Shown piece after piece: positions 29,195 through 57,352 of a stretch of 64,000 nucleotides of DNA (within the stretch, counting starts at the first letter, position 1; each line of letters starts with the position of its first letter). The notes beneath the pieces were generated by a model that saw only the letters and a list, made by a program, of their open reading frames with translations, ran no database searches and was not told the DNA's origin. Where the stretch lies: positions 4,122,980 to 4,186,979 of the forward strand of contig OZ253470.1 of assembly GCA_965261735.1 (NCBI GenBank), written 5' to 3'. Position numbers and translations under genes: made by a program. This DNA is from Alphaproteobacteria bacterium. GTDB taxonomy: Bacteria > Pseudomonadota > Alphaproteobacteria > SHVV01.

Positions 29195-29703
29195 GGAGGC
29201 TCGGGCCACGGCCCTATCCGGGGCGAAGGTCATTCTGTCGATCTATCGTCGTTTCGAAGCGCTGTACCGCTTCCACGAGGAAGGCCGGATACAGCGCGCA
29301 GGCTAGTAGCGGTCGCCATCCAGCACAGGGGAAGGCCCAACCGGCCGACCACGCAGATCTGGCGTAACATCGACCCGCGCCGCGTCCACCAGTTCCCCGA
29401 TCTCCCAAATGTGGTCAGTCACGCGCCCACCGCCATCGCTGGCGTGATCCGTAGCGCCTCGTGGACTCGGCAAAGTTGTACCATGCGGATGCAGTGTCGG
29501 CGCTTCACCCGCCTAACCAACGAGTTCAGCAAGAAGCTTTCGGAACCACAGGCGGCCATTGCCTTGTACGTCGCTTCCCGCGGCCTCATCAGGGACACGG
29601 GCTTTCCGGCGTCCACTCGCGGGCTAGGTGCTGGGCCTCGGCGATCTGAGCAGCTGCAACACTGGGGGCTTGTCGTCGGCGTATGCGAGCGCGAGCCTCA
29701 ACG

Positions 29704-43232: not shown

Positions 43233-44038
43233 GGTGCTGTCAACTTAACGAAGGCAGGTCGCAGTTGAACGTCTGAACTGAGCGGCTCAAGCAGCAGCGG
43301 TCACGGTCCGCCACGTGTTCATCGCGTCACCGCGGAATTGGCGCATTGTCTTGCGAGTGATCAGATGACGTTGGACATTGAAGGTGTTGTAGATGGCGGC
43401 GTGGGTGGAGAGAAACCTTTGCGCCGATCCTGATGACTTGAAGCCCTGCATCCTGCGTTCTCGTTGTCGAACCGGCAGGTGCGAATTCTCCGCCCGATTA
43501 TTGCTCCGTCCGCCGGTAACGTGTTTCCCCGTCATGTTGAGATCACGCAATGCTGCCCCGTAAGATGGCAGTTTATCGGTCACCACCTTATTCGGCGCAT
43601 ACCCCTGCTTCTTGAGCAGTTTGCGCATCAGCTTGAGTGCTGCTTTCTTGTTCCTCCGGGACTGAACCGGGATATCCAGCACCTCACCCTCGCTGTCCAC
43701 CGCCCGCCATAGATACATCCGTTTTCCGTTGATGGAGGAAAACACCTCATCAAGGTGCCACCGGTCGTCTGGTCGAGGGCGTGATTGTCTCAGTTTTCGG
43801 GCATAGGCCTGCCCAAACTTTAAAGACCAGCGCCGTATCGTCTCGTAAGAAACATCGACACCACGTTCAGCGAGCAGATCCTCCACATCGCGGTAACTGA
43901 GCGGAAACCGGAAACACAGCCAGACGGCGCGCTGGATTATCTCTGCAGGAAACCGATGTCGGCGGTAGCTGATCTTGTTCATAACAGGAAGCTACTCGCC
44001 ACCCGCAGCTGACACCAGCCAGTTACCGTGACAGCACC
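43233..44038 (-). mobile_element. IS6-family insertion sequence
   Basis: ~806 bp. Terminal inverted repeats GGTGCTGTCA... at 43233 and (reverse complement) at 44038. Single IS6-type transposase. Confidence 0.7.
43287..43982 (-). CDS. IS6-family transposase
   Basis: MNKISYRRHRFP N-terminus and DDE region typical of IS6/IS26-like transposases, 231 aa. Confidence 0.85.
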   Translation of the reverse strand: MNKISYRRHRFPAEIIQRAVWLCFRFPLSYRDVEDLLAERGVDVSYETIRRWSLKFGQAYARKLRQSRPRPDDRWHLDEVFSSINGKRMYLWRAVDSEGEVLDIPVQSRRNKKAALKLMRKLLKKQGYAPNKVVTDKLPSYGAALRDLNMTGKHVTGGRSNNRAENSHLPVRQRERRMQGFKSSGSAQRFLSTHAAIYNTFNVQRHLITRKTMRQFRGDAMNTWRTVTAAA

Positions 44039-44155
44039 GATCGCCGAAGCGGTGCCCGAGGAAGATCCGGCCGAGCTCATCCGTGAAGTGCTGATTCTCG
44101 AAAGGGAAATCACAAAGGGACTCGAATTACTCTTGGCAGAGGTGGAGGGCCAGTA

Positions 44156-45976
44156 ATGGGCGAGCAATCTGCTTTCACGATCGAATCGAACGACTTGGCG
44201 ATCGCCCAGATTTTCAAGGATTTCTACGCCGTCCCCGACTTCCAGCGCGAATACGTCTGGGAGCGCGAGCACGTCGAGAAGCTCCTCGAGGACGTGCTCG
44301 ATGAGTTCTATGACGAAGATGCTCGGCTGATCGAAGGCCCAGAATACTTCCTGGGCAGCATTGTCTCCTGCCGTGACCATGAAGGGATCTTTCATCTCAT
44401 CGACGGCCAACAACGGATGACGACCATCTACCTTGTTCTGTGCGCTGCGCGTGACGCCTTGAGAGATGCCGACGATAAGCCCACGCGGGTCCTCGAGGCG
44501 CAAATTTCCTACACCTACTCCGATCCCAAAACGGGCGAAGACGTAGAGCGACATCGGCTCACCCTTCAGTACGAGGACAGCGATGGCATCTTGGAAAAAC
44601 TCGTAAAGGCTGACCAACCAGTCTCAGGCCTTCCTGAAACCACGGAGTCCGTGAGGAAGATACTCGCCGCCTATCGGACGATTCGAGAGTTTTTCTCGGT
44701 AAACCTGAGGGACGAACCAGCCGCGATCAAGAGATTCCTGGTGGCCTTCACCGGCCGCATCAAGCTGATCCGCATCCTCACACCGACGATCACCAACGCC
44801 CTGAAGGTGTTCGAGACCATTAACGATCGTGGAGTGGGCTTGAACGCCGTGGATCTCCTGAAGAACCTCCTCTTCATGAAGACGTCCACCGAGGATTATC
44901 CGAAGCTCAAGGATCGTTGGTAAATCCTGATCGACGTTCTCGATGACTGTGGCGAAAAGCCGCTGCGGTTTCTTCGTTACTACATCATGTCGCACTACGA
45001 GATCGACTATAGCCGCAGCATTCGCGAAGACGAAATCTACGACTGGTTCGTCAAGAATACGGAGGTCTGCGGCATCGACCATGATCCACTCGGTTTTGCT
45101 GAAGCGTTAACCGAGTGCGCACGGGCACACGCCAATTTCCTCTCTTCCAAGGACCGCCAGGGCAACGACAACCGATATCTTCGGAACCTCACCCTGCTCG
45201 GCGGCGCGCTTCGCCAGCAGCACATCCTCCTCCTTGCCGGTCGCCATCTCGCGCCCGATCTCTTCGACCAGCTGTGTCGCACCATCGAGAGCCTTTTCTT
45301 CTGTTACATCATCACGCGCGAACCGACCAAGACCTTCGAGCGAAATTTCGCCCGATGGTCGGGGGAGTTGCGCAGCTGCGAATACGCGGCCGCCCTTGAT
45401 GCCTTCCTGAACAAATATCTCATAGCGGACCTACGGGGGCGCACCGAACGGTTCGACTTCGCCTTCCGGGAACTCACACAATGGAACATCCAGCAGTACC
45501 GCATGCGGTACATCCTGGCGAAGCTCACCGAGTACATCGAGGAACAGGCATGGGGCAGCCCCACCTACGCCCAACTGGACCGCTACACGGACAAATCGGT
45601 CCACGTCGAGCACATACTGCCGCAGACACCCACTGCGGAGGTTCGGGAGGCATTCGACAAACCGGGCGAGTATGATGACTACCTCAGCCGGCTCGGTAAC
45701 CTTACGCTGCTGGAGAAGACCATCAACAGCTCGGTCTCCAACGGCAGCTATACCGACAAGGGGCCGGGGTATAGGCAGTCCTCTTTCCTGCTTACCAAGT
45801 CGCTAGCCGAGAAGCCGCACGTCGGGACCAACACTCAGCTGAACCGGGCGGTGGCCGATCTGATTCAGTTCGATTGCTGGAACTCGCAGACGATCGTACA
45901 GCGCCAGGAAATGCTGACCGCGCTGGCGCGAAAGGTATGGGACATGCCGTCGGGCACCAAGGAGGCAACGGGATGA
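44156..45976 (+). pseudogene. DUF262 (ParB/Srx-like, DGQQR) + DUF1524 (HNH-like) GmrSD-family type IV restriction-like gene, split by an in-frame TAA at 44921-44923
   Basis: ORF 44156..44923 has DGQQR (DUF262). ORF 44987..45976 has VEHILPQ (DUF1524). Both are in the same frame, separated by one stop codon. Confidence 0.6.
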
Positions 45977-47271
45977 TTTGGCCCCCAGTGCCCCTTGAGA
46001 AGCTCGCGCGTGCTTCTGGCGGAAGCACACCCAAGCGTAACAACGATTCCTATTGGAATGGCGATGTCCCTTGGGTGACCCCTTCAGACTTGCCAGCACC
46101 AGGAGCATCGATCGTCGATGTGGAGGACACCAAGGACCACATCACACAGGAGGGGCTCAATTCCTGTTCCGCCCTGCTCTTGCCGCCTGAAACGGTGCTC
46201 TTCTCCTCCCGCGCGACCATTGGGAAAATCGGTATTGCCAAGGTTCCTTTAGCGACCAACCAGGGCTTTGCGAATTTCACGCCCAACCTTGGTGTTGAGC
46301 CAAAGTATCTTGCATATGCGCTTCGGTATTTTACGCCACAGATCACCGCACTGGCCGGTTCTACTACCTTCAAGGAAGTGAGCCGGGGCGCGATCCGCAA
46401 ATTCCAGATCCCTCTCCCGCCCCCTTCGGAGCAGAAGCGAATCGTCGAAATTCTCGATCAGGCCGATGCGCTCCAGCGTGAATGTGCAGAGGCGGACGCA
46501 AAGAAACAGCGTATCCTACCAGCGCTATTCACGAGAATGTTCGGAGACCCGGCTACCAACCCCATGGGGTGGCCGACCGCACCGATGGGTGATGTTGTTG
46601 AGATTGGTACAAAACTTGTTGATCCAAACGGGAGTACGTATCTCGATCTGCCGCATATTGGTGGAGAAGAAATCGAAAAGAACACCGGCCGCATCCTTTC
46701 TACTAAATTAGTACGCGATAGCAAACTTCGAAGCAGCAAATTTCATTTCACGCGGGAACATATTCTTTATTCGAAGATTCGTCCTTATCTAAATAAAGTT
46801 TCCTATCCCGGTTTCGAAGGACTTTGTAGCGCGGACATTTACCCTCTACGTCCAAAAGATAACCACACCACAACATGGTATCTTGTAGCGCTTCTTCGCT
46901 CAACGTCCTTCCTCTGCTATGCAAACTTGCATTCAGAGCGGCTGCGAATGCATAAGTTGAATCGCGAGCAGTTGGGAGCGTTCAAAACACCTTTGCCCGA
47001 TCCTGAGTTACTGGAGGCTTTCGAGCAACGGGCACAGTCATTGGCCACATTTGACGTTAGTCGTTTTCACCGAGCTCGTGAAACGAAAACATTGTTCCAC
47101 GTCATCATTCATCGATCCTTCTCTGGCGAGCTCACCGCCAAATGGCGCGACAGCCACACCGATGAGCTATTGCGAGAAGCTCAGGAACAAGCGGAGGCGC
47201 TGGAGACGGTGTGTGCCGGAACCTCGACCGGCCCCCGCCGCGGACGGCCTTTGAAAGCGGTGTCATGTTGA
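45973..47271 (+). CDS. hsdS: Type I restriction-modification specificity subunit HsdS (two TRDs), orphan
   Basis: Conserved S-subunit central and C-terminal repeats (FQIPLPPPSEQKRIVEILD, TPLPDPELLEAFEQ). The second TRD is markedly AT-rich. No hsdM or hsdR in the window. Confidence 0.8.
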   Translation: MIWPPVPLEKLARASGGSTPKRNNDSYWNGDVPWVTPSDLPAPGASIVDVEDTKDHITQEGLNSCSALLLPPETVLFSSRATIGKIGIAKVPLATNQGFANFTPNLGVEPKYLAYALRYFTPQITALAGSTTFKEVSRGAIRKFQIPLPPPSEQKRIVEILDQADALQRECAEADAKKQRILPALFTRMFGDPATNPMGWPTAPMGDVVEIGTKLVDPNGSTYLDLPHIGGEEIEKNTGRILSTKLVRDSKLRSSKFHFTREHILYSKIRPYLNKVSYPGFEGLCSADIYPLRPKDNHTTTWYLVALLRSTSFLCYANLHSERLRMHKLNREQLGAFKTPLPDPELLEAFEQRAQSLATFDVSRFHRARETKTLFHVIIHRSFSGELTAKWRDSHTDELLREAQEQAEALETVCAGTSTGPRRGRPLKAVSC

Positions 47272-48944
47272 CAGCGATTCGCCTCGGCAATTTCAAGGCA
47301 TTCGGGGCGACCCAACGGGTGCCTTTGAAGCCCCTCACTCTAGTCTTTGGCCCCAATAGTGCCGGCAAATCGAGCATTATTCACAGTTTGGCGCTCGCAC
47401 ACGAGGCCCGTCGAAGCGGAAATCTCGACGCTTTCCGGACCGACGTCGGCGGCACATCGATCGATCTGGGCGGCTTTCGCCAGTATGTGTTTCGCCGCGA
47501 CCCTTCCCATCGTGTCGAGTTGGCGATGGAAATCGATGTCTCCAAGCTCTCTGGACGGTTGGCAGAAATACTGGCGCCCATACGCACCGCAGCAGTGTCG
47601 GTCAATTTCGGTTTACCTGTGGATGATCACGGTTATGCGCCAAGCGACGCATTGACTGAATTAGAGAGTTATAAGGTCGAAGGGGATGGGTCCGATCTAC
47701 TACGTATGAGCAGGCGCCCAGGCGGCAATCTCCATCTTGATCGTCTGGCGAACGAACATCCAGTGTTTCGCCAAGTCCTCAAGGCGATCGTCGAGACGGG
47801 CACTACCACTTCCGAACTCAGGAACGAAGACCAAAAGGTCCTTGATGAGACCATCGCCGACCTTATTCCGATGCTAAAGGTCAAAGCCGGGCGTTTTCTC
47901 CCAGATGGAATAGAGGGCACTTCGGAACAGGCCGAGAGTGGGGCCGCCGAAGCCATGCTCTTCCCCGTCGGTCGCGGCAGCAGATCAGAGGATCTGGCCG
48001 GTGCAGTTCGCTTCTATTTGCCGCGCATTCTGAATGAGTTGATCGGTGGGCTGGATCATGAGGTCGGTGAACAGATAGAGCGGCTTCAATATCTAGGGCC
48101 GCTTCGCTCGTACCCGCCCCGCCATCTGGCGTTTTCCGAACACGACGACGCGAACTGGCACGCCGGGGGCGGCTATGCGTGGGACGTGCTCCGGCGAGAC
48201 TGGATGGTCAGGGAGCAAGTCAACAAGTGGCTTGGGGCTAATTGGCTCAAGACCAACTACCAACTTGTGCTACGGGAATTTGTCGCGATGGATCAACTTG
48301 ACAAACCGCTTTCAACTGCATTCGAGACCTTTGAAGGCGACGACCAAGTCCTTGACCTTGAGGTAGATTACGATCATTCGAGCGGAGAACCTTCAGGTCA
48401 ATACCCGGTTATTAAAGACGCTGACGAAGCAATATCTCGCATCCGAACGTGTATCGAAATGTCCGACATCGACAAATTAGCGGAGTTAATCCTTGTCGAT
48501 CAAAGCACGGAGACCGTGGTTAGCCACCGGGACGTCGGCATCGGCATCTCGCAGGTTTTGCCGGTCCTTGTCTCGTGCTACGGCCTTCGCGACCAGATCG
48601 TCGCGATCGAGCAGCCGGAGATCCATCTGCACCCAGCGCTTCAGGCCGAGCTAGGCGATGTCTTTATTCAGTCGGCGCTCGGCGACAATAACAATGCCTT
48701 CGTTCTAGAGACCCATTCCGAACATTTGATCCTCAGGATCATGCGCCGAATTCGCGACACCGCCGATGATAGACTCCCTTCCGGTGTTCCTGCCGTCAAG
48801 CCCGACGACGTTTCGGTGATTTTTGTTGAACAAACGAAGGTGGGAGCAATCGTTCGGGTGCTCCAACTCGACACCGACGGCGAGTTTACCGATTCCTGGC
48901 CAGGCGGTTTCTTTGAAGAGGGCTTCAGAGAACGGTTCACTTAA
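47265..48944 (+). CDS. ABC-type AAA ATPase (AAA_15/21-like with DUF3696-like C-terminus), defense-associated
   Basis: N-terminal LTAIRLGNFKAF...FGPNSAGKSS Walker A. Distal Walker B/D-loop IVAIEQPEIHLHPALQ. ~560 aa, OLD/RecF-like split ATPase layout. Confidence 0.7.
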   Translation: MLTAIRLGNFKAFGATQRVPLKPLTLVFGPNSAGKSSIIHSLALAHEARRSGNLDAFRTDVGGTSIDLGGFRQYVFRRDPSHRVELAMEIDVSKLSGRLAEILAPIRTAAVSVNFGLPVDDHGYAPSDALTELESYKVEGDGSDLLRMSRRPGGNLHLDRLANEHPVFRQVLKAIVETGTTTSELRNEDQKVLDETIADLIPMLKVKAGRFLPDGIEGTSEQAESGAAEAMLFPVGRGSRSEDLAGAVRFYLPRILNELIGGLDHEVGEQIERLQYLGPLRSYPPRHLAFSEHDDANWHAGGGYAWDVLRRDWMVREQVNKWLGANWLKTNYQLVLREFVAMDQLDKPLSTAFETFEGDDQVLDLEVDYDHSSGEPSGQYPVIKDADEAISRIRTCIEMSDIDKLAELILVDQSTETVVSHRDVGIGISQVLPVLVSCYGLRDQIVAIEQPEIHLHPALQAELGDVFIQSALGDNNNAFVLETHSEHLILRIMRRIRDTADDRLPSGVPAVKPDDVSVIFVEQTKVGAIVRVLQLDTDGEFTDSWPGGFFEEGFRERFT

Positions 48945-48946
48945 AG

Positions 48947-49915
48947 GTGTTGGAATTGTTTTACGAATACGCGATCACGCCAGAAGTTTTCGACCCAGCC
49001 TTCTTAGCAGAAAACGGGGCGAACCCTGTGGTTATCACTCAGCTTCTCCGTGGAATTTGCGAAAACGAAATGATCGCCGTCCTGCATAAGAACGGATGGA
49101 GCAGAGACATTGCACAACGCATTGGTAGTGTGCCTTCACAGAAAAACAGAAACAAGCTCATGACGTTGTTGTCGGGTCTCAAGGACCGAAATCGGTTGGT
49201 ACGGCACCCAAAAGGACCGAACCATCCAAACGACAAATTGGAATGGCTGGTATTAGCTCGCGAAGCTCACAATCGTGCGCCACTTGACGCGCTCATGCTC
49301 ACCCCTGAATTGCTCAAGATTAGTGGCATGAATGATGAAATTTTGATTGAAGTTGATAGTGCGTTGGATTCGCGGGCTTGGCTTGCTCGAAAACGATCCG
49401 AGACAATCAAACAACGAGAAGAGGATTATCGAGGCTTGTTTCCGAAAATCCTGCGTCACTCAAAACGGCTTTACCTCATCGACCGCTTCTTCAGGCCCGA
49501 ACTGCGTCAATGGACTGACACGATTAAGATTTGCGACTCATTGATGGGGCAACGTGGCGGAGAACCGCTTCAGGGCATTATCGAGATACACACTGGCGAT
49601 CCTTCAAAGCGATGTTCGCCTCAACACGAAGCGGCGGCATGGGAACGTTGGAAGAGAGCGGAGTTCGTTCCAAATTTCCGCCACACGTTGTCAGTCGGGA
49701 TGTGGAAGAGATGCGACGACGGCAAACGCGTACATGACCGCTTCCTGATAACGGATCAGGTGGGGTTCTCGATTGCTGGTGGATTGGATTGCCTAAGGCC
49801 GCCATTTGGCACTCCGTCCGATACGATCTGGACACTGATGGATGAAGAGGAGCGACAGCTTTGGCTGAGCAAGTTTAGGGCGGACACAAGCCCTTACGAG
49901 AAAATTGAACCGTAG
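48947..49915 (+). CDS. Hypothetical 322-aa protein, partner of the ATPase (candidate effector)
   Basis: Starts 3 nt after the ATPase stop, co-oriented. No recognisable domain. Possible D...EVD...K nuclease-like motif. Confidence 0.5.
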   Translation: MLELFYEYAITPEVFDPAFLAENGANPVVITQLLRGICENEMIAVLHKNGWSRDIAQRIGSVPSQKNRNKLMTLLSGLKDRNRLVRHPKGPNHPNDKLEWLVLAREAHNRAPLDALMLTPELLKISGMNDEILIEVDSALDSRAWLARKRSETIKQREEDYRGLFPKILRHSKRLYLIDRFFRPELRQWTDTIKICDSLMGQRGGEPLQGIIEIHTGDPSKRCSPQHEAAAWERWKRAEFVPNFRHTLSVGMWKRCDDGKRVHDRFLITDQVGFSIAGGLDCLRPPFGTPSDTIWTLMDEEERQLWLSKFRADTSPYEKIEP

Positions 49916-50074
49916 CAGCGGTGAGCGAAATGTGAGGCGGCCTCGCCTTTTCGGACAGCTTGGCGGCTGAGTTAAGGTGTGACAACTTACAGCCCAAAAG
50001 GGCTATCTACACGAACATATACAGCGTTGCTCAATCCTCCTGATAATTACGATGTTACAATAGCTTGGCCTGTC

Positions 50075-50160
50075 CGCCATCAAAACAAATGGGACTGTTA
50101 ACCGTGTTTCATAAGGGAGGATCTGGCTCATCTTTGTTTGATGTTAAGCCGCTTGGCGTT
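50075..50160. repeat. Left ~86-bp terminal inverted repeat of nested IS21-family element (starts TGT)
   Basis: Reverse complement is ~95% identical to 54165-54250. Confidence 0.7.
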
Positions 50161-50341
50161 GATGGCCCAAGCGGTGGTTTTGGGTGGTCAGTTTTTGATC
50201 CTTTTTCCCTTTTTGTCAACGGCGGCGGGAATATGTACCGGGGCGGCGCTGCAAAAATGATGGAGTGGACGCCTCCTCCCGACGGCATCTGCATGTGCCA
50301 AGGTGGTGTTGTAGTTCGACCCCCTGAAGGAGGAGGCATCC

Positions 50342-51364
50342 GTGGAACAGGTTACCATCGTCGGGATTGATTTGGCGAAGCGCAGCTTTCAGCTTCATGG
50401 TGCTGGGGCGGACGGCTCTGTCGTGTTCCGCAGGAAGCTGAGCCGGGAGAGATTGCTGGACTTTCTCGCTTCTCAGCCGCGCTGCGTGGTCGCGATGGAG
50501 GCTTGCGCGGGCGCTCACCAATGGGGCCGCGAGATCGGAGAGCTCGGCCACGAGGTGAGGTTGCTCCCGCCGGTCTACGTCAAGCCGTTCGTGAAGCGGC
50601 ATAAGAACGACATGGCGGATGCAGAGGCGATCTGCGAGGCGGCGCAGCGCCCGACGATGCGCTTCGTGGCGGTGAAGACGAAAGAACAGCAGGCCAGGGG
50701 AATGCTGTTCCACACGCGCGACCTTCTGGTGCGCCAGCGCACGCAGACGATCAACGCGTTGCGGGGCCACCTGGCGGAGTTTGGCGTTGTCGCGCCGCAG
50801 GGACCGGCTCATGTCGATCGGCTGGCATCGGCCCTCCAGGGTCCAGGTTCAGGGCTGCCAGGATCGGTCCGTGAGCTGGGCGCCCTTCTGCTCGATCGGA
50901 TCGAGGACCTCGATGCGAAGATCGACGGATTGAGGAGGGAGCTCCGCGCCCGCGCGTGTCAGGACGAAGAGGCGGCACGGCTCATGACGATCCCCGGCAT
51001 TGGGCCGATCACCGCAATGGCAATCCAGGCCTTCGCACCGCCGATGGAGAGCTTCCGACGCGGCCGCGACTTCGCGGCCTGGCTCGGGCTCGTGCCGCGA
51101 CAGCACACGACCGGCGGCAAGCCAAGGCTTGGCAGGATATCGAAGATGGGCCAACGCGATCTGCGGCGGCTGTTGATCACGGGCGCCATGGCTGTGGTCA
51201 GCTGGGCGGCTCGGCGTGGCGCGACGAACGACCCCTGGCTGGCCAGGATGCTGGCCCGCAAGCCGAGAATGCTGGTCGCGGTGGCGCTGGCCAACCGGAT
51301 GGCACGCATCATCTGGGCGCTGACAACGAAGAAGGAGAGCTACCGGGCTCCCGCCGCCGCCTGA
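50342..51364 (+). CDS. IS110-family transposase
   Basis: N-terminal DEDD/RuvC-like (VGIDLAKRSFQL) and C-terminal conserved region (MTIPGIGPITAMAIQA). ~390 bp non-coding downstream. Confidence 0.85.
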   Translation: MEQVTIVGIDLAKRSFQLHGAGADGSVVFRRKLSRERLLDFLASQPRCVVAMEACAGAHQWGREIGELGHEVRLLPPVYVKPFVKRHKNDMADAEAICEAAQRPTMRFVAVKTKEQQARGMLFHTRDLLVRQRTQTINALRGHLAEFGVVAPQGPAHVDRLASALQGPGSGLPGSVRELGALLLDRIEDLDAKIDGLRRELRARACQDEEAARLMTIPGIGPITAMAIQAFAPPMESFRRGRDFAAWLGLVPRQHTTGGKPRLGRISKMGQRDLRRLLITGAMAVVSWAARRGATNDPWLARMLARKPRMLVAVALANRMARIIWALTTKKESYRAPAAA

Positions 51365-51771
51365 GAGGACGGCGAAAGGCGGAGAGCCGTCGGGGATGTG
51401 GGCAGGTCGGAGGACAGGTAAGGGCAAACGGTCAATCGAGACGGGATCGGGAAAACCAGTCGTGGTACACGGAGCTTTCAAGCCCGCAAAAATGATCTTG
51501 GACCCGGTCCGCGCATCTCCATACAGGCCCGCGGCGTCAAACCAGCCGCATCATGAGGCCGGACAGATGACTGCACCTGACCGCATGTGCCGAACCGTCC
51601 GAAGAAAGGCTTGCATCAACGGAGGCGTCCACAGATGTACCACGGGCTCGGTGGTAGCTTGTCCGCATAGTCCATGGGAGGGACCCGCGCGCGGGGCGAC
51701 GCGCCCTCCGCGCGGCTGGCGGCGGCCCGCGCGTGAGAGGGGCGTGTGGGCCCACGCGGGCAAGCGGGGGG

Positions 51772-52536
51772 TTATTCGGACGGTTGCCGGCGTCGTGACC
51801 GGCTCTGCTTGAGCCGGTAGCTCTCGCCGTTCATCTCCAGGATATGGACATGGTGGGTGATGCGGTCGAGCAGCGCGCCGGTGAGGCGCTCGCTGGCGAA
51901 GACCGTCGTCCATTCCTGGAAGGGCAGGTTTGAGGTCACGATGGTGGCGCCGTTCTCGTAGCGCCGGCTGAAGACGTCGAACAGCAGCTCGCTTCCGGTC
52001 TGCGACAGGGGCACGTAGCCGAGCTCGTCGACGATCAGGAGATTGACCCTGGCGAGCTGGGCCTGGAGTCGGAGCAGCCTCTTCTCGTCGCGCGCCTCGA
52101 TCAGCTCGTGGACCAGGTGGGGGGCGGTGGCGAAGCGCACGCCGAGGCCCTTCTGGCAGGCGGCGAGGCCGAGGGCGAGAGCGACATGGGTCTTTCCGAC
52201 GCCGCTCGGGCCGAGCAGGATTACGTTCTCGCGGCGCGCGATGTACTCGCCGCGGGCGAGATCCAGCACCAGCATCTTGTTGAGCGCCGGGATCGCCTTG
52301 AAGTCGAAGCTCTCGAGCTGTTTGACGACAGGGAACCCGGCCTGCTTGATACGCCGTTCGACGAGGCGGCGCTCGCGGTCGATCAGCTCCAGCTCCACCA
52401 GCCGGGCCAGGAACTGCACATGATCCAGGCCCTCGGCCGCGCACTGGCGCGCCAGTTTCTCGTATTCCCGCAGGAAGGTCGGCAGCTTCAGCCTCTTCAG
52501 GTGATGTTCGAGCAGGATGCGGGGGGCCTCAGCCAT
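51772..52536 (-). CDS. istB: IS21-family helper ATPase IstB
   Basis: Walker A GPSGVGKTH, Walker B LLIVDELGY. Start at MAEAPRILLEHHL. Confidence 0.85.
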   Translation of the reverse strand: MAEAPRILLEHHLKRLKLPTFLREYEKLARQCAAEGLDHVQFLARLVELELIDRERRLVERRIKQAGFPVVKQLESFDFKAIPALNKMLVLDLARGEYIARRENVILLGPSGVGKTHVALALGLAACQKGLGVRFATAPHLVHELIEARDEKRLLRLQAQLARVNLLIVDELGYVPLSQTGSELLFDVFSRRYENGATIVTSNLPFQEWTTVFASERLTGALLDRITHHVHILEMNGESYRLKQSRSRRRQPSE

Positions 52537-54031
52537 GGCCGGCCCCTCCGGCCAGCAGGATGGCGTAGTCGGCGCTCCGCGTGGCGGCGACGAAGGGCTG
52601 GGGCAGGTGCGGATAGCGCGACAGGTCGAGATGCACGGGCCGCCTCTCGATGCGCGCCAGCAGGAGATGCTTGACCGCATCGAAGCCGATCAGGCGCCGC
52701 TTCACCGCGTCGCGCACCGCGGCCGCCACCTGCCGTTCCGGGAAGTCTTCGTGCAGGCGCAGCACCTGGATGTATTCGCGCTTGCCGCGCGGGCCGAAGC
52801 GGGCTTCGAGGAGGCGGCGCAGCGTGTCGAAGGCGGGATCGAGCTTCCATCCCCGCAGCGGCGCCGCCTGGTCCAGGGCGCCCGGCTTCTTCTCCAGCAG
52901 CGACAGATAGTGCAGCGGGTCGTAGATGACGTCGCCGCGGACATAGGAGCGCCGATGGCGGGCGACGATCTCGGCGCCGAGCGCGATCTCGACCCGGTCG
53001 ACATAGCCCTTCACCATGACCTTCTTGTGGGCGTGCGCCGCCGGCGCCGAGTAGTCCACCAGCCGGTAGCGCACCAGGGCCGTGGACGAGATCTGGCCCG
53101 GCACATGCTCGCAAGCCTCGAAGGGAACCGCCGGCAGATCGCGCAGGGCCTCGAGATCGGCCAGCGCCGCCGCCGCCTGCCCCCCTGCCTCCAGCGCGTC
53201 GAGCCGCTCAAGGCAGCGCGCCAGCAGCCGCTCGTTCAGGACCGACAGGTCATGCACCTTCGGGATCGGCACCATGAACCGGCGCCGTGCCGTCTTCACC
53301 AGGGCCTCGACCTTGCCCTTGTCGTTGCCCTTGCCGGGCCGGCCGAAGCGGTCGCGGAACAGGTAGTGCGATTGCAGATGCGTGAACGCCTGCGTGCGCC
53401 GACGCGTGCCGTCGCCCAGGATCCTCGCCACCGCAAGCGTCGTGTTGTCATAGAGGATCGATCGCGGCACACCGCCGAGGAAGGCGAAGGCGCTGACATG
53501 GCCGTCCAGGAAGGCCTCCGTCGTCTCCCTCGGATAGGCCTTGACGAACCAGACGTTGGAATGGGGCAGGATCAGGCAGAAGAAGGCAACCTTCTCCCGC
53601 CTGCCCCCGACCTCCACCACCGCCTCGCCGAAGTCGACCTGGGCATGGCCCGGCGGGTGATGCAGCGGCACAAAAGCCTCGCGCGTCGACTGCCGCCGAG
53701 CCCGGACATAGTCCTTCACGATGGTATAGCCGCCGGTGAACCCGTGCTCGTCCCGTAGCCGCTCGAATATCCGGTGCGCCGTGTGGCGCTGCTTGCGCGG
53801 CACGTCCGGATCCGTGTCCGCCTCCAGGATCGCGTCGACGATGCCGGTGAACCCGTCCAGCTTGGGCCGCCGGACCGGCTTCGTCCGGCGGTAGCCCGGT
53901 GGCGCCGAGTAGGTCAGCATCTTCTTCACCGTGCGACGGTCGATGCCGAACCGCCGGCCCGCCTCGTGATGACTCAGACCCTCGTCGACAACCGCCAGTC
54001 GAACCGCCGCATAGAGCTCCACGCCGTACAT
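52529..54031 (-). CDS. istA: IS21-family transposase IstA
   Basis: HTH N-terminus, DDE core (HAQVDFGE ... LYDN). Overlaps istB by 8 nt. Confidence 0.85.
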   Translation of the reverse strand: MYGVELYAAVRLAVVDEGLSHHEAGRRFGIDRRTVKKMLTYSAPPGYRRTKPVRRPKLDGFTGIVDAILEADTDPDVPRKQRHTAHRIFERLRDEHGFTGGYTIVKDYVRARRQSTREAFVPLHHPPGHAQVDFGEAVVEVGGRREKVAFFCLILPHSNVWFVKAYPRETTEAFLDGHVSAFAFLGGVPRSILYDNTTLAVARILGDGTRRRTQAFTHLQSHYLFRDRFGRPGKGNDKGKVEALVKTARRRFMVPIPKVHDLSVLNERLLARCLERLDALEAGGQAAAALADLEALRDLPAVPFEACEHVPGQISSTALVRYRLVDYSAPAAHAHKKVMVKGYVDRVEIALGAEIVARHRRSYVRGDVIYDPLHYLSLLEKKPGALDQAAPLRGWKLDPAFDTLRRLLEARFGPRGKREYIQVLRLHEDFPERQVAAAVRDAVKRRLIGFDAVKHLLLARIERRPVHLDLSRYPHLPQPFVAATRSADYAILLAGGAGHG

Positions 54032-54164
54032 CTCGTGCCCCTCGTCGCAACCGACAAGGGACCATGAGTGGCACAATTTTGCGCCGCCGCGACCGGACCG
54101 CCCGGCCGCCTCGCGTGGAGCATTATTCCTCCGCCGTTAACAACCGCCGCTTGAACCATCAAAG

Positions 54165-54250
54165 CCAAGCGGCTTAACATCAAACAAAGATGAGCCAGAT
54201 CCTCCCTTATGAAACACGCTCAACAGTCCCATTTGTTTTGATGACGGACA
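54165..54250. repeat. Right ~86-bp terminal inverted repeat of nested IS21-family element (ends ACA)
   Basis: Matches the reverse complement of 50075-50160 with 3-4 mismatches. Confidence 0.7.
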
Positions 54251-54313
54251 GGCAGGCCCGCGCGGAAGCACCTTGATCGCCCAGCCGGAAGCGCCTTGTT
54301 CGAGTGCGGGGCG

Positions 54314-55558
54314 CTAGGCCGCGCGCTTATCGAAACGCCGGGTCCGCCTGCGGCGCTTGCGGGGGCTCGGTGCCGGTCGAGGCGCCGCGCCCTTGCCGTT
54401 ATTGCCCGACGCGGCCACAGTCTCGTCCGGCGCCTCGCCGACAACCCGCAATGACTCTTTGATCAACCGCTCGATCGCGCGCAGTTGCGGCCGCTCGCTG
54501 GCATCGCAGAACGAGATCGCGATGCCCGCGGCGCCCGCGCGCGCGGTGCGGCCGATCCGGTGAACGTAGCATTCGGGCTCGTTCGGCAGCTCGTAATTGA
54601 TGACGTGGGTGACGTCGTCGACGTCAAGCCCGCGCGCGGCGACATCGGTGGCCACCAGCACCCGCACTTCTCCGGTGCGGAAGTTTTCGAGCGCCCGTTG
54701 GCGCGCATTTTGGGACTTATTGCCATGCAGCGCATCGGCACTGACCCCGCCAAGGGCGAGCCGTTTGACCACCTGGTTGGCGCCGCGTTTGGTGCGCGTA
54801 AATACCAGCACCTTTTTGAGATCGGGTGCGGCAAGAAGCTTGGCCAGAAGATCGCGTTTCGAGGCCGTGGCGAGGTGATGGACGTGTTGCTCGACGCGCT
54901 CCACCGCCACCCTCTTGGCCGCGATTTCGACCCGTTCAGGCTCGAACAGGACCTCGCCGGCGAGCTTCGCAACCTCGGCCGGCATGGTCGCCGAAAAGAG
55001 CTGTGTCTGCCGCTCATCAGGCAGCATCGCCACGATCTTACGCACGTCGCGGATGAAGCCCATGTCGAACATGCGGTCGGCCTCGTCGATGATGAGGTAT
55101 TCGCACTGGCTCAAATCGGCGCGGCGCTGCTGCGCGAGATCGAGAAGCCGGCCCGGCGTGGCAACCAGAATGTCGACGCTGCGGCGCAGCGCCTCGATCT
55201 GGGGCCGCTGGGGGACGCCGCCCATGACGACCGCCTGGCGAAATTGCAGGTGCCGCCCATAGGTCTTGATGCTGCTGGAGATCTGTAGCGCGAGTTCGCG
55301 CGTGGGCGCGAGAATTAGCGCTCGCGTCGTCCACGGCGAAGCCTTGACGCCGTCTTCGACGAGGTTCTGCAGAAGCGGCAGCGTGAACGCCGCTGTCTTG
55401 CCGGTGCCCGTCTGGGCGATACCGAGCAGATCCATGCCGTCCAGCAGGTACGGAATGGCGCGACGTTGAATGGGGGTGGGGGTGTCGTACTGCGCGTCTT
55501 CAAGCGCGCGTAAAAGCCGCTCGGAGAGCCCGAGTTCGGCGAAAGCTGAAACTGTCAA
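54314..55558 (-). CDS. rhlE: DEAD-box ATP-dependent RNA helicase (RhlE-like) with basic C-terminal tail
   Basis: Q-motif, AQTGTGKTAAF, DEAD (IIDEADRM), SAT, HRIGRTARAG. TTG start with AAGGA RBS. Confidence 0.8.
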   Translation of the reverse strand: MTVSAFAELGLSERLLRALEDAQYDTPTPIQRRAIPYLLDGMDLLGIAQTGTGKTAAFTLPLLQNLVEDGVKASPWTTRALILAPTRELALQISSSIKTYGRHLQFRQAVVMGGVPQRPQIEALRRSVDILVATPGRLLDLAQQRRADLSQCEYLIIDEADRMFDMGFIRDVRKIVAMLPDERQTQLFSATMPAEVAKLAGEVLFEPERVEIAAKRVAVERVEQHVHHLATASKRDLLAKLLAAPDLKKVLVFTRTKRGANQVVKRLALGGVSADALHGNKSQNARQRALENFRTGEVRVLVATDVAARGLDVDDVTHVINYELPNEPECYVHRIGRTARAGAAGIAISFCDASERPQLRAIERLIKESLRVVGEAPDETVAASGNNGKGAAPRPAPSPRKRRRRTRRFDKRAA

Positions 55559-55863
55559 AGATACAAATTCCTTGTTACGGAGACCCGGCGCGCGCGGAGG
55601 CGAGCGATCAGGGCTAACCGTGTCCTTCTTTTCCACGCGCACTTAGATCAGACGGGGATTGGATGAAATATCCTCGCGGTAATAAGCCCGTTTCGACGGG
55701 CAGATCGCGCGACCGCGAGGAACGCTGCCTTTCAAATGAGCCCTCCCGCCTCGAAAGTCAAGGTGTGGGCCGAAAATCGGATCGTCAAACGTCGAGCACC
55801 AGGTCGGTCGTAAGGGGTGCGAGTCTCGCATGGCAGTGATGTCTGCGGCTTGGTTCGTTGAGT

Positions 55864-57130
55864 TCAGGCAGCGATTGCCATGGCTGCTGCACGTGGACTG
55901 ATGTTGTCGTTGGCCGGTGTGTCGGTTGCGCTGATCAGGGCCTTCCATGCGCGCTCGAAGCGGCCGGATTTGATCAGGGCGCGGAAGGTCAGAACAGCCT
56001 GTCCGCCGACGATCCGCCAGCGCATGCCGGAGCGCTTCATTTGCTGTGTCACCAGGGTCTTGTTGGCAGCCTCGACCACGCCTGAGCCGATGGCGATGCC
56101 CTCTTCCTTCAGGGCGTGGTAGCGCATGCGATGGCGATGCTTGCGGAAGAAGGCGAGTTCCCGCTCGGTCTCGGCCCGGTCCGGCGCAGCGGCGGCATCG
56201 CGAAGGTGGCGCAGCGCCCGGATCACCTTGGCGACGCCACGGGGATCGTGACGGAGGATCTCGCGGTACTTCTCGAACCAGCCGGGCGCCACGGCATGGT
56301 CGGACGCGGTTTGCAGATGTTCGCAAGCATGCCAGAAGTCGATCACCTCGGTTTCGGGCGACAGGGTCTCCAGGAAGGTCCAGTTGTCGGCGGCGCCATC
56401 GGCGATAGCGACGATCCCGATCTCGGGGCGTGCTCGCCTGATGTGTGCGACTTCGCTTGCAAGCTGCGCCTTCAGCGTGAGCTTGCCGCTCTCCGGCATG
56501 CGGCCGGGATAGAGGGTCTTCAGGCGCTTGCCCTCGGCGTCGTGGAAGGGAGACCGTGCCGCAGGCGGCCTCGCGCAAGGAGGCCTTGGCGCGACCGTCC
56601 TCGCCGGGTCTCAGCGGCACCATGACGCCGTCGAGGGAGACCGAGGCGGTGGTCGCGTCCTGCGGTATGCCCTCGGCCTCACGGATGCTGCCCAGCGTCT
56701 CCGGGCCGAGGCTCTCCCAGCATTCGTGCATGCTCAGGGTCAGGCGCTGCAGGGTGCTCACCGACGGCGTCATGGCGCCGGTCTTCGCAAAGAACGCCGC
56801 CGCTTCCCGGGCCGTGCAGTGACCCATCATCAGCAGACCGAGCTCGGCCGCCGGCCGCGTCAGGTAATCGTCGACGAGGCCCAGGCTCTCGTCGACCGGC
56901 ACCGGCGATGCCCCGCTCGCGCCGCTGCGGTAACGCGCTCGCCGGTAGGTCACCGGACCGAGCGAGGTCATGATCGTCTTCGGCGTCACCGCGACCCGGA
57001 ACCAGCTCTGCCCGTCCCGCTCGATCCGGGAAGCGCCATCGTCCCGGTTCTCGATGACGGCGCCCATGACATCGCGAGCGAACTCGTTCGTGGCCTCACG
57101 CACCCGCAACTCGACCTCCTCGGGCGCCTC
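55864..57130 (-). pseudogene. ISKra4-like family transposase interrupted by a frameshift near 56500
   Basis: C-terminal part in ORF 55864..56499 (WHACEHL, GSGVVEAANKTLVTQQMKRSGMRW). N-terminal part continues in another frame within track ORF 55643..57232. Confidence 0.5.
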
Positions 57131-57352
57131 GGGGCGCGGCTCGGAACAACCAGGTGGTGAAGTGCCCGCTCGAGGTTCACAAGCCTTGATGGCGAAACAT
57201 ATCTGACGCCTCCAACCGGTGCATTTGGGCAAGGCTGGACTGTTGCGATTATCTTTACGTGGGAGGCTCCGCCGTGAAGCCGCGGTATTGTCGTCCCCGT
57301 GTTGGTGTCATGGGGCAGCCTATGCCGTGAAGAAGCCCGGCAGCGGTGCCGG

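What the first reader, a model, noticed from the sequence alone, without database searches (positions are those of the whole stretch)
50075..54250. Nested insertion sequences: IS21-family element with unusually long (~86 bp) terminal inverted repeats containing an IS110-family element
Segments 50075-50160 and 54165-54250 are near-perfect inverted copies beginning TGT and ending ACA, the IS21-family terminal dinucleotide pattern. istA/istB occupy the right two-thirds. An IS110-type transposase (plus strand) lies between the left IR and the istB stop. There is no obvious target-site duplication at the outer ends. IS110-family elements are known to target the ends or repeats of other elements.
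Basis: partly seen in the sequence, partly recalled or inferred. Interest (0 to 1): 0.55.

Follow-up and report, generated by a model that had tools for sequence, protein, structure and literature searches.

The report
Three nested insertion sequences, one RNA-guided
This is an ordinary IS21-type jumping gene carrying a small RNA-guided jumping gene (IS1111/IS110 type) that homes to one spot in the IS21 end, and the "unusually long" repeats are leftover ends of a third, unrelated element.

Summary
The inverted repeat is real, and longer than reported: 112 nt, 94% identical (50068-50179 / 54142-54253). It does not belong to the IS21. In 21 other copies the IS21 stops at TGTCAACGG (50214) and TGTTAACGG (54142, reverse strand), with unrelated flanks.

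The long arms are two right-end stubs (143 and 108 nt) of a widespread IS3/IS481-type element. They face each other.

The IS21 is 2551 bp when empty. It has roughly 25-bp imperfect terminal repeats, and 4 of 10 empty copies show 6-bp target duplications.

44-46 bp inside its right end sits a 1378-bp IS1111-type (IS110 family) element, 50258-51635. It has 12-bp sub-terminal repeats, 7+3 bp terminal extensions, an intact 340-aa DEDD transposase and a 3' non-coding region.

That region folds into two internal loops. One loop complements both strands of the IS21 target (GCAAAAA^TGTACCACG). The other complements the element's own joined ends. In four relatives the same loop positions change to match their own flanks.

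All ten copies seen occupy this one site in the same orientation. They differ by at most 0.65%, while their host IS21 copies differ by 2-5%. The same chromosomal locus in two other assemblies holds the IS21 without the insert.

Verdict: a new member of a known kind. The nesting is confirmed; the "long IS21 repeats" reading is refuted.

The parts
50071..50213 (-). Stub L: last 143 nt (right end) of an IS3/IS481-type element. Its terminus TGTCCG lies at 50071. It includes the last orfB codons (..KLTTQNHRLGHQRQAA*) read on the minus strand. The first 109 nt form the left arm of the 'long IR'.
   Evidence: BLAST to the reference copy L057: nt 1369-1513 at 94.5%. At 66 sites (64 in the 59 fetched stretches, 2 in the window) the flanks diverge exactly before TGTCCG. 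The reference has orfA (HTH_Tnp_1) and orfB (rve), and the IS3 model passes its cutoff.
50214..50257 (-). Outer 44 bp of the IS21 right end (TGTCAACGGCGGCGGGAATATGTACC...), cut off from the rest of the IS21 by the IS1111-type insert.
   Evidence: Twelve empty IS21 copies carry this stretch joined directly to window 51636 onward. Flanks diverge at 50214 in all copies.
50258..51635 (+). IS1111-type (IS110 family) RNA-guided insertion sequence, 1378 bp. Boundaries follow the family's 7+3 bp extension rule; a 3-bp ATG shared by both junctions makes them ambiguous by up to 3 bp.
   Evidence: Composite (3929 bp) minus empty IS21 (2551 bp) equals 1378 bp. It is a presence/absence difference at the orthologous locus L085/L086.
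50265..50276 (+). Left sub-terminal inverted repeat, GTGGACGCCTCC.
   Evidence: Perfect 12-bp inverted match with 51621-51632. Relatives carry GTGGATGCCCC at the same place.
50342..51364 (+). Transposase/recombinase gene, 340 aa, GTG start preceded by AGGAGG.
   Evidence: Pfam DEDD_Tnp_IS110 and Transposase_20. NCBIfam 'IS110 family RNA-guided transposase', 322 bits against a cutoff of 140. Distant match to the ISCro4 and IS621 transposase structures.
51444..51510 (+). Predicted target-binding stem-loop of the seekRNA/bridge RNA. The 5' guide 51461-51469 (CGTGGTACA) complements the target top strand TGTACCACG. The 3' guide 51486-51494 (GCAAAAATG) complements the bottom strand. The two overlap at TG.
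   Evidence: Exact matches. Matches this long occur in 11 and 25 of 20000 shuffles. The consensus structure leaves both segments in an internal loop. The segments co-vary with the flanks in four relatives.
51511..51574 (+). Predicted donor-binding stem-loop. 51517-51522 (CTCCAT) complements the left end ATGGAG. 51563-51570 (ACAGATGA) equals the joined right end/left end sequence ACAGA|TGA.
   Evidence: The 3' donor segment tracks the right end in relatives with no mismatch in three (ACACATGA, ATACATGA twice). In L083 only a 5-nt exact match was found by the script; the full ACACACG match, including the CG core, is read by eye. Structure.
51621..51632 (+). Right sub-terminal inverted repeat, GGAGGCGTCCAC.
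51636..54142 (-). Main body of the IS21-family element. istB 51772-52536 (254 aa); istA 52529-54031 (500 aa); left terminus TGTTAACGGCGGAGGAATAATG read from 54142 on the minus strand.
   Evidence: Pfam IstB_IS21, rve and Mu-transpos_C_2. NCBIfam IS21 transposase and IstB helper both above cutoff. 98.4-99.2% identical to empty copies.
54143..54250 (+). Stub R: last 108 nt (right end) of the same IS3/IS481-type element, with its terminus ...GGACA at 54250. It encodes ..RRLNHQSQAA* on the plus strand and forms the right arm of the 'long IR'.
   Evidence: BLAST to L057 nt 1404-1513 at 99.1%. The same stub/IS21 junction is present at the orthologous locus L085/L086.

Best explanation
The region is a three-layer nest of insertion sequences.

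Layer 1 consists of two relic right ends of an IS3/IS481-type element, 143 and 108 nt, from two different copies and pointing towards each other. They produce the long inverted repeat and play no part in the elements inside them.

Layer 2 is a standard IS21-family element, 2551 bp without its passenger. It encodes istA and istB and has roughly 25-bp imperfect TGT-ended terminal repeats. Each end carries two copies of an AAWWTGYNCC motif.

Layer 3 is a 1378-bp IS1111-type member of the IS110 family. It is inserted 44-46 bp inside the IS21 right end, within the inner copy of that motif (GCAAAAA^TGTACCACG), and in the opposite orientation to istAB. It carries a seekRNA/bridge RNA in its 3' non-coding region. 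One internal loop pairs with both strands of the IS21 site. A second loop pairs with the element's own joined ends.

The DEDD recombinase would therefore insert the excised circle site-specifically into IS21 copies, making this an element that lives inside another mobile element.

Shown: the boundaries, the family features, the guide-target matches with their co-variation, a single shared site and orientation in 10 copies, and presence/absence at one orthologous locus. Inferred: that an RNA is actually made and that it guides the recombination.

The IS21 has no 6-bp duplication here and sits between stubs from two IS3-type copies. The flanks were therefore most likely joined by recombination between IS21 copies, or by IS-adjacent rearrangement, rather than by a simple insertion. 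That step is inferred and carries only about 50% confidence.
For: IS21 ends:
- 9 composite loci and 12 empty loci all begin at TGTCAACGG (window 50214) and end at TGTTAACGG (54142), with unrelated flanks.
- Empty copies show 6-bp duplications in 4 of 10 cases: AGGCTG, GACAGG, TTGAGG, CCGACA.

Arms are IS3-type right ends:
- A 23-mer from the arm occurs in 59 stretches of MAG DNA.
- Similarity always starts at TGTCCG and runs into the 3' end of orfB.
- The window stubs match reference nt 1369-1513 and 1404-1513.
- orfA and orfB carry the expected domains.

IS1111-type insert:
- The empty site reads ...GCAAAAATG|TACCACGG; the occupied site reads ...GCAAAAATG|ATGGAGTGGACGCCTCC....GGAGGCGTCCACAGATG|TACCACGG.
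- It has a 12-bp sub-terminal repeat, extensions summing to 10 bp, and its long non-coding region downstream of tnp. These are the family criteria in PMC11187229 and PMC11208160.

Guides:
- 9-nt and 9-10-nt matches to the two target strands overlap at the core, with the top-strand complement lying 5' of the bottom-strand complement. This is the order reported for IS1111-type seekRNAs.
- The consensus fold of six relatives has two stem-loops with internal loops; 13 of 50 pairs show compensatory changes.
- In a guide-versus-target cross-matrix the diagonal scores are 18/16/12/16/12 against 6-9 off the diagonal.
- The donor guide tracks the right-end sequence in relatives.

Repeated homing:
- 10 copies share the same site and orientation. 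Eight are identical or differ at one base, and the window copy equals L007, 0.58% away.
- Their IS21 hosts differ by 2-5%, while the window's IS21 is only 0.8-1.6% from empty copies.
- The orthologous locus in L085/L086 (helicase 100% aa, DNA 99.1%) has an intact target and no insert.
Against: - No RNA or transposition data exist; expression and processing of the seekRNA are inferred.
- Rfam has no matching family: nothing relevant at E<=1.
- The comparison set for structure is only six sequences.
- Some IS21 divergence between loci could come from gene conversion or from repeat collapse in metagenome assemblies. L001 and L004 are the same locus yet differ by 4.6%, and a 344-bp conversion patch is visible in L085. 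The 'independent insertion' argument therefore rests on magnitude, not on a clean tree.
- IS110-family excision is scarless, so the empty orthologous locus does not show which state came first.
- The origin of the two facing IS3-type stubs is not resolved. Neither the window nor L085 shows the product expected from a simple IS21 insertion into an intact IS3-type copy.
Confidence: 0.85

Rival explanations
1. One reading: the 86-112 bp inverted repeats are the terminal repeats of the IS21-family element, which would then span 50071-54250.
For: The arms begin TGT and end ACA and bracket istA/istB.
Against: - All 21 other copies of this IS21 end at 50214 and 54142 and lack the arms. Four empty copies have 6-bp duplications directly at those ends.
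- The arm sequence is the right end of a 1512-bp two-ORF element and contains that element's orfB stop codon.
- The arms are absent from 19 other IS21 loci.
Confidence: 0.02
2. The IS1111-type element entered one IS21 copy once, and the composite then spread as a unit by IS21 transposition (hitch-hiking). The shared site would reflect common descent, not repeated RNA-guided homing.
For: Both IS21 termini are intact in the composite, so IstA/IstB could in principle move it. Every junction is identical in all copies.
Against: - The insert copies differ by 0-0.65%, but their IS21 hosts differ by 2-5%. The window's host is closest to empty copies.
- None of the three complete composites has a 6-bp duplication, against 4 of 10 empty copies.
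- The orthologous locus differs only by the precise 1378-bp element.
- The guide sequences match the site.
- Some hitch-hiking in addition to homing is not excluded.
Confidence: 0.1
3. The two facing IS3-type right ends, with everything between them, form a composite or MITE-like unit mobilised by the IS3-type transposase.
For: Two ends in inverted orientation with TG...CA termini. The three bases outside each terminus, GCC and GGC, are reverse complements of each other.
Against: - There is no direct duplication at the outer ends: GCC on the left, GGC on the right.
- The arrangement occurs only here. The orthologous locus has stub R but not stub L.
- Both ends are right ends, they differ at 7 of 112 positions, and their flanks are unrelated.
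Confidence: 0.03

Closest known systems
IS1111-group elements of the IS110 family with seekRNA/bridge RNA (ISEc11, ISKpn4, ISPa11; PMC11187229, PMC11208160)
   Same: - DEDD plus Transposase_20 recombinase.
- 12-bp sub-terminal inverted repeats with 7+3 bp terminal extensions.
- Long non-coding region downstream of tnp.
- Two guide segments that overlap in the target, the top-strand complement lying 5' of the bottom-strand complement.
- A second loop that matches the element's own ends.
- One specific target and one orientation.
   Different: - The target is new: the inner repeat of an IS21-family right end.
- The transposase is at most 69% identical to the nearest plasmid-borne relatives and only distantly related to the solved IS621 and ISCro4 proteins.
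- Nothing has been tested experimentally.
IS4321/IS5075 in the 38-bp terminal repeats of Tn21-family transposons, and IS1383 in the inverted repeats of IS1384 (both known here only as titles in the reference lists of PMC11187229 and PMC11208160)
   Same: An IS1111-type element that uses the end of another transposable element as its specific site, in a fixed orientation.
   Different: The host is an IS21-family element. The site lies 44-46 bp inside the terminus, in the second copy of the terminal motif, not in the terminal repeat proper. I could not read those papers here, so the comparison rests on their titles and on general knowledge.
IS21 family (IS21, IS408, IS5376 and relatives)
   Same: - Overlapping istA (HTH plus DDE) and istB (AAA+ helper).
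- TGT...ACA termini.
- Repeated motifs inside both ends.
- 6-bp target duplication, within the family's 4-8 bp range (general knowledge).
   Different: Nothing unusual once the IS3-type stubs are removed: 2551 bp with roughly 25-bp imperfect repeats.
IS3 / IS481 families (the outer stubs)
   Same: - TG...CA termini.
- orfA (HTH_Tnp_1) followed by orfB (rve).
- The NCBIfam IS3 model passes its cutoff.
- Plasmid relatives at about 74% DNA identity are annotated 'IS3 family transposase'.
   Different: - orfB has its own HTH and starts at an ATGA overlap with orfA.
- It scores higher on the IS481 model, though just under that model's cutoff.
- Intact copies show 8-12 bp flank duplications, longer than the 3-5 bp usual for IS3 (general knowledge).

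Membership tests
IS1111 group of the IS110 family | DEDD (RuvC-like) N-terminal domain plus IS110-type C-terminal domain | tested here: met
   PF01548 at 1.7e-14 and PF02371 at 1.1e-24. NF033542 scores 322 bits against a cutoff of 140.
IS1111 group of the IS110 family | Sub-terminal inverted repeats, usually 11-13 bp and perfect or near-perfect (PMC11187229) | tested here: met
   GTGGACGCCTCC at 50265-50276 against 51621-51632: 12 bp, perfect.
IS1111 group of the IS110 family | Asymmetric terminal extensions beyond the repeats, 7 bp on the left and 3 bp on the right (PMC11187229) | tested here: met
   From the empty-site comparison, 10 bp in total lie between the repeats and the flanks. This fits 7+3 and gives 50258-51635. 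The split itself is ambiguous because of the shared ATG.
IS1111 group of the IS110 family | Longer non-coding region downstream of tnp | tested here: met
   84 bp upstream (50258-50341) against 271 bp downstream (51365-51635).
IS1111 group of the IS110 family | seekRNA with a top-strand complement 5' of a bottom-strand complement, the two overlapping in the target (PMC11187229) | tested here: met
   51461-51469 complements TGTACCACG. 51486-51494 equals GCAAAAATG. They overlap at TG. The pattern co-varies in relatives.
IS1111 group of the IS110 family | The RNA is made, binds the transposase and is needed for movement; a circular intermediate forms | not testable with these tools
   Requires RNA-seq or RIP and a transposition assay.
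IS1111 group of the IS110 family | One specific target site and orientation, with no target duplication | tested here: met
   10 of 10 copies sit at the same base in the same orientation. Only the 3-bp core is shared by the two junctions.
IS21 family | istA (DDE transposase) followed by an overlapping istB (AAA+ helper) | tested here: met
   NF033546 scores 263 bits (cutoff 160) and NF038214 scores 284 bits (cutoff 200). The genes overlap by 8 bp.
IS21 family | Terminal inverted repeats ending in TG/CA, with extra repeated motifs inside the ends | tested here: met
   TGTCAACGGCGGCGGGAATATGTACC against TGTTAACGGCGGAGGAATAATGCTCC. A second AAAATGTACC / AAATTGTGCC motif lies further in.
IS21 family | Target-site duplication of 4-8 bp | tested here: met
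   6 bp in 4 of 10 empty copies. None is present at the window copy.
   The arms are absent from 19 other loci and belong to another element.
IS3 family (outer stubs) | Two ORFs (orfA with HTH, orfB with DDE rve) and TG...CA ends | tested here: met
   Reference copy L057.
IS3 family (outer stubs) | Short target duplication of 3-5 bp (general knowledge) | tested here: not met
   6 of 32 intact copies show 8-12 bp duplications, 2 show 3 bp, and the rest show none of 3 bp or more. The element is therefore filed only as 'IS3/IS481-type'.

The most novel reading that the evidence does not exclude
This IS1111-type element may be a dedicated hyperparasite of one IS21 lineage. Its guide is aimed at the inner transposase-binding repeat of the IS21 right end, so each insertion gains a multi-copy, horizontally mobile safe site and may also cripple or tax the host IS21.

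Its guide-coding DNA may also act as a half target. That would explain the fourfold tandem array of its last 143 bp in L005, whose joints lie exactly at the ATG core. If so, this would be a natural trace of half-match bridge recombination.
Probability: 0.3. Interest if true: 0.45.

Novelty: new member of a known kind. Interest (0 to 1): 0.3.

Why it matters
It removes a false lead: there is no IS21 with giant terminal repeats. It also supplies a clean natural example of RNA-guided homing by an IS1111-type element, complete with its target, empty sites, an orthologous presence/absence pair and co-varying relatives.

Such sets help in learning the guide rules of IS1111-type bridge/seek RNAs, which are less well mapped than those of IS621. 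They also bear on how mobile elements parasitise each other in IS-rich genomes.

For annotation, the lesson is that long inverted repeats around an IS can be stubs of another element.

Tried and rejected
- Rfam scan of 49500-54800 at E<=1 found only three weak microRNA-model hits and no bridge/seek RNA family.
- A megablast of the whole region against plasmids found no close relative, only 72-83% partial hits.
- Exact-protein look-ups failed for IstA with either start codon, for the 322-aa neighbour and for the AAA ATPase. The helicase look-up with a TTG start succeeded.
- A JGI metagenome scan for the left end of the IS1111-type element gave 0 matches.
- I considered the arms as a palindromic MITE, an sRNA or terminator, or island att sites. 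All were rejected once the 59-stretch scan showed them to be the orfB-proximal end of a 1512-bp IS.
- I considered a simple IS21 insertion into one IS3-type copy. This was rejected because both stubs are right ends, there is no 6-bp duplication, and no other IS3-type sequence lies in the window.
- I looked for a general association between IS21 and IS3-type ends and found none in 19 other loci.
- My automated guide finder picked spurious short matches for some relatives, so I replaced it with an alignment-based comparison.

Full report
**Observation.** The inverted repeat is real. The repeat finder reports arms at 50068-50179 and 54142-54253, 112 nt and 94% complementary, by far the longest pair in the region. 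A 22-mer from the arm occurs exactly twice in the 64-kb window and never in shuffles. Between the arms lie an IS110-family transposase gene (50342-51364, +), istB (51772-52536, -) and istA (52529-54031, -). Pfam and NCBIfam confirm all three above the curated cutoffs. The repeat is longer than stated, and the TGT/ACA termini are at 50071 and 54250.

**Where the IS21 really ends.** Exact-protein look-ups gave nine other loci carrying the identical IS110-type transposase (L001-L009). They also gave ten loci carrying the identical IstB without any IS110 gene (L010-L019). In every one, similarity to the window starts at 50214 (TGTCAACGGCGG...) and stops at 54142 (TGTTAACGGCGG... on the other strand), and the flanks differ each time. 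The empty element is 2551 bp. Four of the ten empty copies carry perfect 6-bp target duplications directly at these ends. The IS21 is therefore ordinary, with roughly 25-bp imperfect terminal repeats. The 112-nt arms lie outside it, with a 34-nt spacer (50180-50213) on the left side only.

**What the arms are.** A 23-mer from the arm occurs in 59 stretches of the genome collection. Most are in Alphaproteobacteria MAGs, including about 35 sites on one Micropepsaceae chromosome. Aligned on the match, all copies diverge from their flanks just before TGTCCGTCATC. Nearly all continue inward with the same sequence as the window arms plus the 34-nt spacer.

A complete copy (L057) is about 1512 bp. 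It has orfA (HTH_Tnp_1) and orfB (rve, with HTH_23/HTH_32), and the NCBIfam IS3 model passes its cutoff. Relatives on plasmids are annotated as IS3-family transposases. The arms contain the last codons and the stop of orfB. Window 50070-50213 matches nt 1369-1513 of the reference at 94.5%. Window 54142-54251 matches nt 1404-1513 at 99.1%. No other part of that element is in the window.

Both arms are therefore right ends, from two different copies, facing each other. This is why they look like one very long inverted repeat. Their outer flanks carry no direct duplication. Nineteen other IS21 loci contain no IS3-type sequence.

**The inner element.** Comparing occupied and empty IS21 copies fixes the insert. 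The empty site reads ...GCGCAAAAATG|TACCACGGGC.... The occupied site reads ...GCAAAAATG|ATGGAGTGGACGCCTCC......GGAGGCGTCCACAGATG|TACCACGG....

The insert has perfect 12-bp sub-terminal inverted repeats. Ten bp of terminal extension fit the 7+3 rule, giving 50258-51635 and 1378 bp. It has 84 bp upstream of tnp and 271 bp downstream. These are the features that Siddiquee et al. (PMC11187229) and Durrant et al. (PMC11208160) use to separate the IS1111 group from the IS110 group.

The composite length of 3929 bp equals 2551 + 1378. The insertion point is 44-46 bp inside the IS21 right terminus, in the inner of two AA(A/T)ATGTACC motifs. The corresponding motif at the left end (GCAAAATTGTGCCACT, three mismatches) is not occupied.

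**Guide RNA.** Within the 3' non-coding region, 51461-51469 (CGTGGTACA) is the exact complement of the target top strand TGTACCACG. 51486-51494 (GCAAAAATG; 10 nt in empty copies) equals the top strand, and so complements the bottom strand. The two matches overlap at TG. In 20000 dinucleotide shuffles, matches this long arose 11 and 25 times respectively, and both at 7 nt or more arose 9 times. The order, top-strand complement 5' of bottom-strand complement with overlapping matches, is the one reported for IS1111-type seekRNAs.

A second pair matches the element's own ends. 51517-51522 (CTCCAT) complements the left end ATGGAG. 51563-51570 (ACAGATGA) equals the joined ends ACAGA|TGA.

I fetched six plasmid-borne relatives, 66-70% identical in protein. 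Five share the scaffold. RNAalifold places the two variable pairs in the internal loops of two consecutive stem-loops, and 13 of 50 pairs show compensatory changes.

In the four relatives with clean ends, the variable segments match their own flanks. In a guide-versus-target matrix the diagonal is 18/16/12/16/12 against 6-9 elsewhere. The donor segment follows each element's right end with no mismatch in three relatives: ACACATGA in one and ATACATGA in two. In L083 the script found only a 5-nt exact match. By eye, its guide ACACACG matches a right end followed by a CG core. Rfam has no family for this RNA. That an RNA is made and used remains an inference.

**Repeated homing versus one ancestral event.** All ten copies sit at the same base in the same orientation, in at least seven different IS21 loci. 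Eight copies are identical or differ at one base. The window copy equals L007 and differs from the others by 8 substitutions, 0.58%.

Their host IS21 sequences differ by 2-5%. The window's IS21 is 0.8-1.6% from empty copies but 3.5-5.1% from other hosts. Several hosts have broken istA or istB while the insert stays intact.

The same chromosomal locus was found in two other assemblies (L085, L086). The helicase is identical, the DNA is 99.1% identical, and the IS3-type stub/IS21 junction is the same. Both carry the IS21 with an intact target and no insert.

Two caveats apply. Gene conversion among IS21 copies is visible as a 344-bp patch with 23 differences. Metagenome assemblies can also blur repeats. 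Even so, the contrast is large and favours repeated site-specific insertion. Excision is scarless in this family, so the direction of the change at the orthologous locus cannot be determined.

**History of the stubs.** The stub R/IS21 left-end junction is shared with L085 and L086, but the right flank differs. Neither state is what a simple insertion of IS21 into an intact IS3-type copy would leave, and no 6-bp duplication is present. The most economical account is recombination between two IS21 copies, each lying in a different IS3-type copy, or an IS-adjacent rearrangement. This is inference only.

**Comparison and verdict.** The inner element meets every sequence-level criterion of the IS1111 group. 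It works like ISEc11 and its relatives. Its choice of another element's end as a target parallels IS4321/IS5075 in Tn21-family repeats and IS1383 in IS1384 repeats, both known here only from reference lists. The IS21 is a plain family member.

The outer stubs are IS3/IS481-type. Their intact copies show unusually long duplications of 8-12 bp, so I do not file them firmly under IS3.

The finding is a new member of a known kind. The nesting is right, the "unusually long IS21 repeats" reading is wrong, and the interest is modest.

Noticed in passing
L005 7151-7722 (equivalent to window 51495-51637): The last 143 bp of the IS1111-type element (donor loop, right sub-terminal repeat and ATG core) occur four times in tandem. 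Every internal joint reads ...GTCCACAGATG|ATCTTGGACCC.... That is the right end joined to the base just after the element's own guide-coding DNA GCAAAAATG, as if that DNA had served as a half target. This could also be an assembly artefact.
   Followed up: partly
L085 / L086 11246-13978 versus window 54313-50214: The orthologous locus in two other assemblies has the same helicase, the same IS3-type stub and the same IS21, but lacks the 1378-bp insert and has a different right flank. Its IS21 carries a 344-bp patch (window 52093-52436) with 23 differences, while the window matches the common IS21 type. This looks like gene conversion between IS21 copies.
   Followed up: yes
L020-L078 (IS3/IS481-type element; reference L057 5901-7412): Intact copies show 8-12 bp direct flank duplications in 6 of 32 cases, which is long for the IS3 family. 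orfB has its own HTH and nearly reaches the IS481 model cutoff. Head-to-tail joints (L038) and 2292-bp tandem units (L068) occur on a Micropepsaceae MAG chromosome.
   Followed up: partly
window 47265-49915 (+), inside a lower-GC block at about 44000-50200: A 559-aa AAA_15/AAA_21/DUF3696 ATPase matches the candidate anti-phage defence models PDC-M55A, NsnB and HEC-03B (E about 1e-42). It is followed by a 322-aa protein with no Pfam or PADLOC hit. GC content is 50-58%, against about 65-70% to the right of the IS nest.
   Followed up: partly
window 55643-57232 (-): This long ORF has only a weak N-terminal UPF0236 match (the family of ISLre2-type transposases, from general knowledge). The segment 55812-57147 is inverted relative to L085/L086, which also carry extra IS copies nearby.
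   Followed up: no
L004 near the equivalent of window 51467-51485: One copy of the IS1111-type element has a 19-nt insertion that duplicates the small hairpin between the two target guides. It may be real or a sequencing error.
   Followed up: no
window 29470-29485: GCAAAGTTGTACCATG resembles the IS21 target motif with 3 mismatches. It may be the end of another, diverged IS21-like element.
   Followed up: no
L008 4616-4803: The left end of an IS21 abuts an inverted 188-bp fragment of the IS1111-type element. This is another sign of frequent rearrangement among these elements.
   Followed up: no
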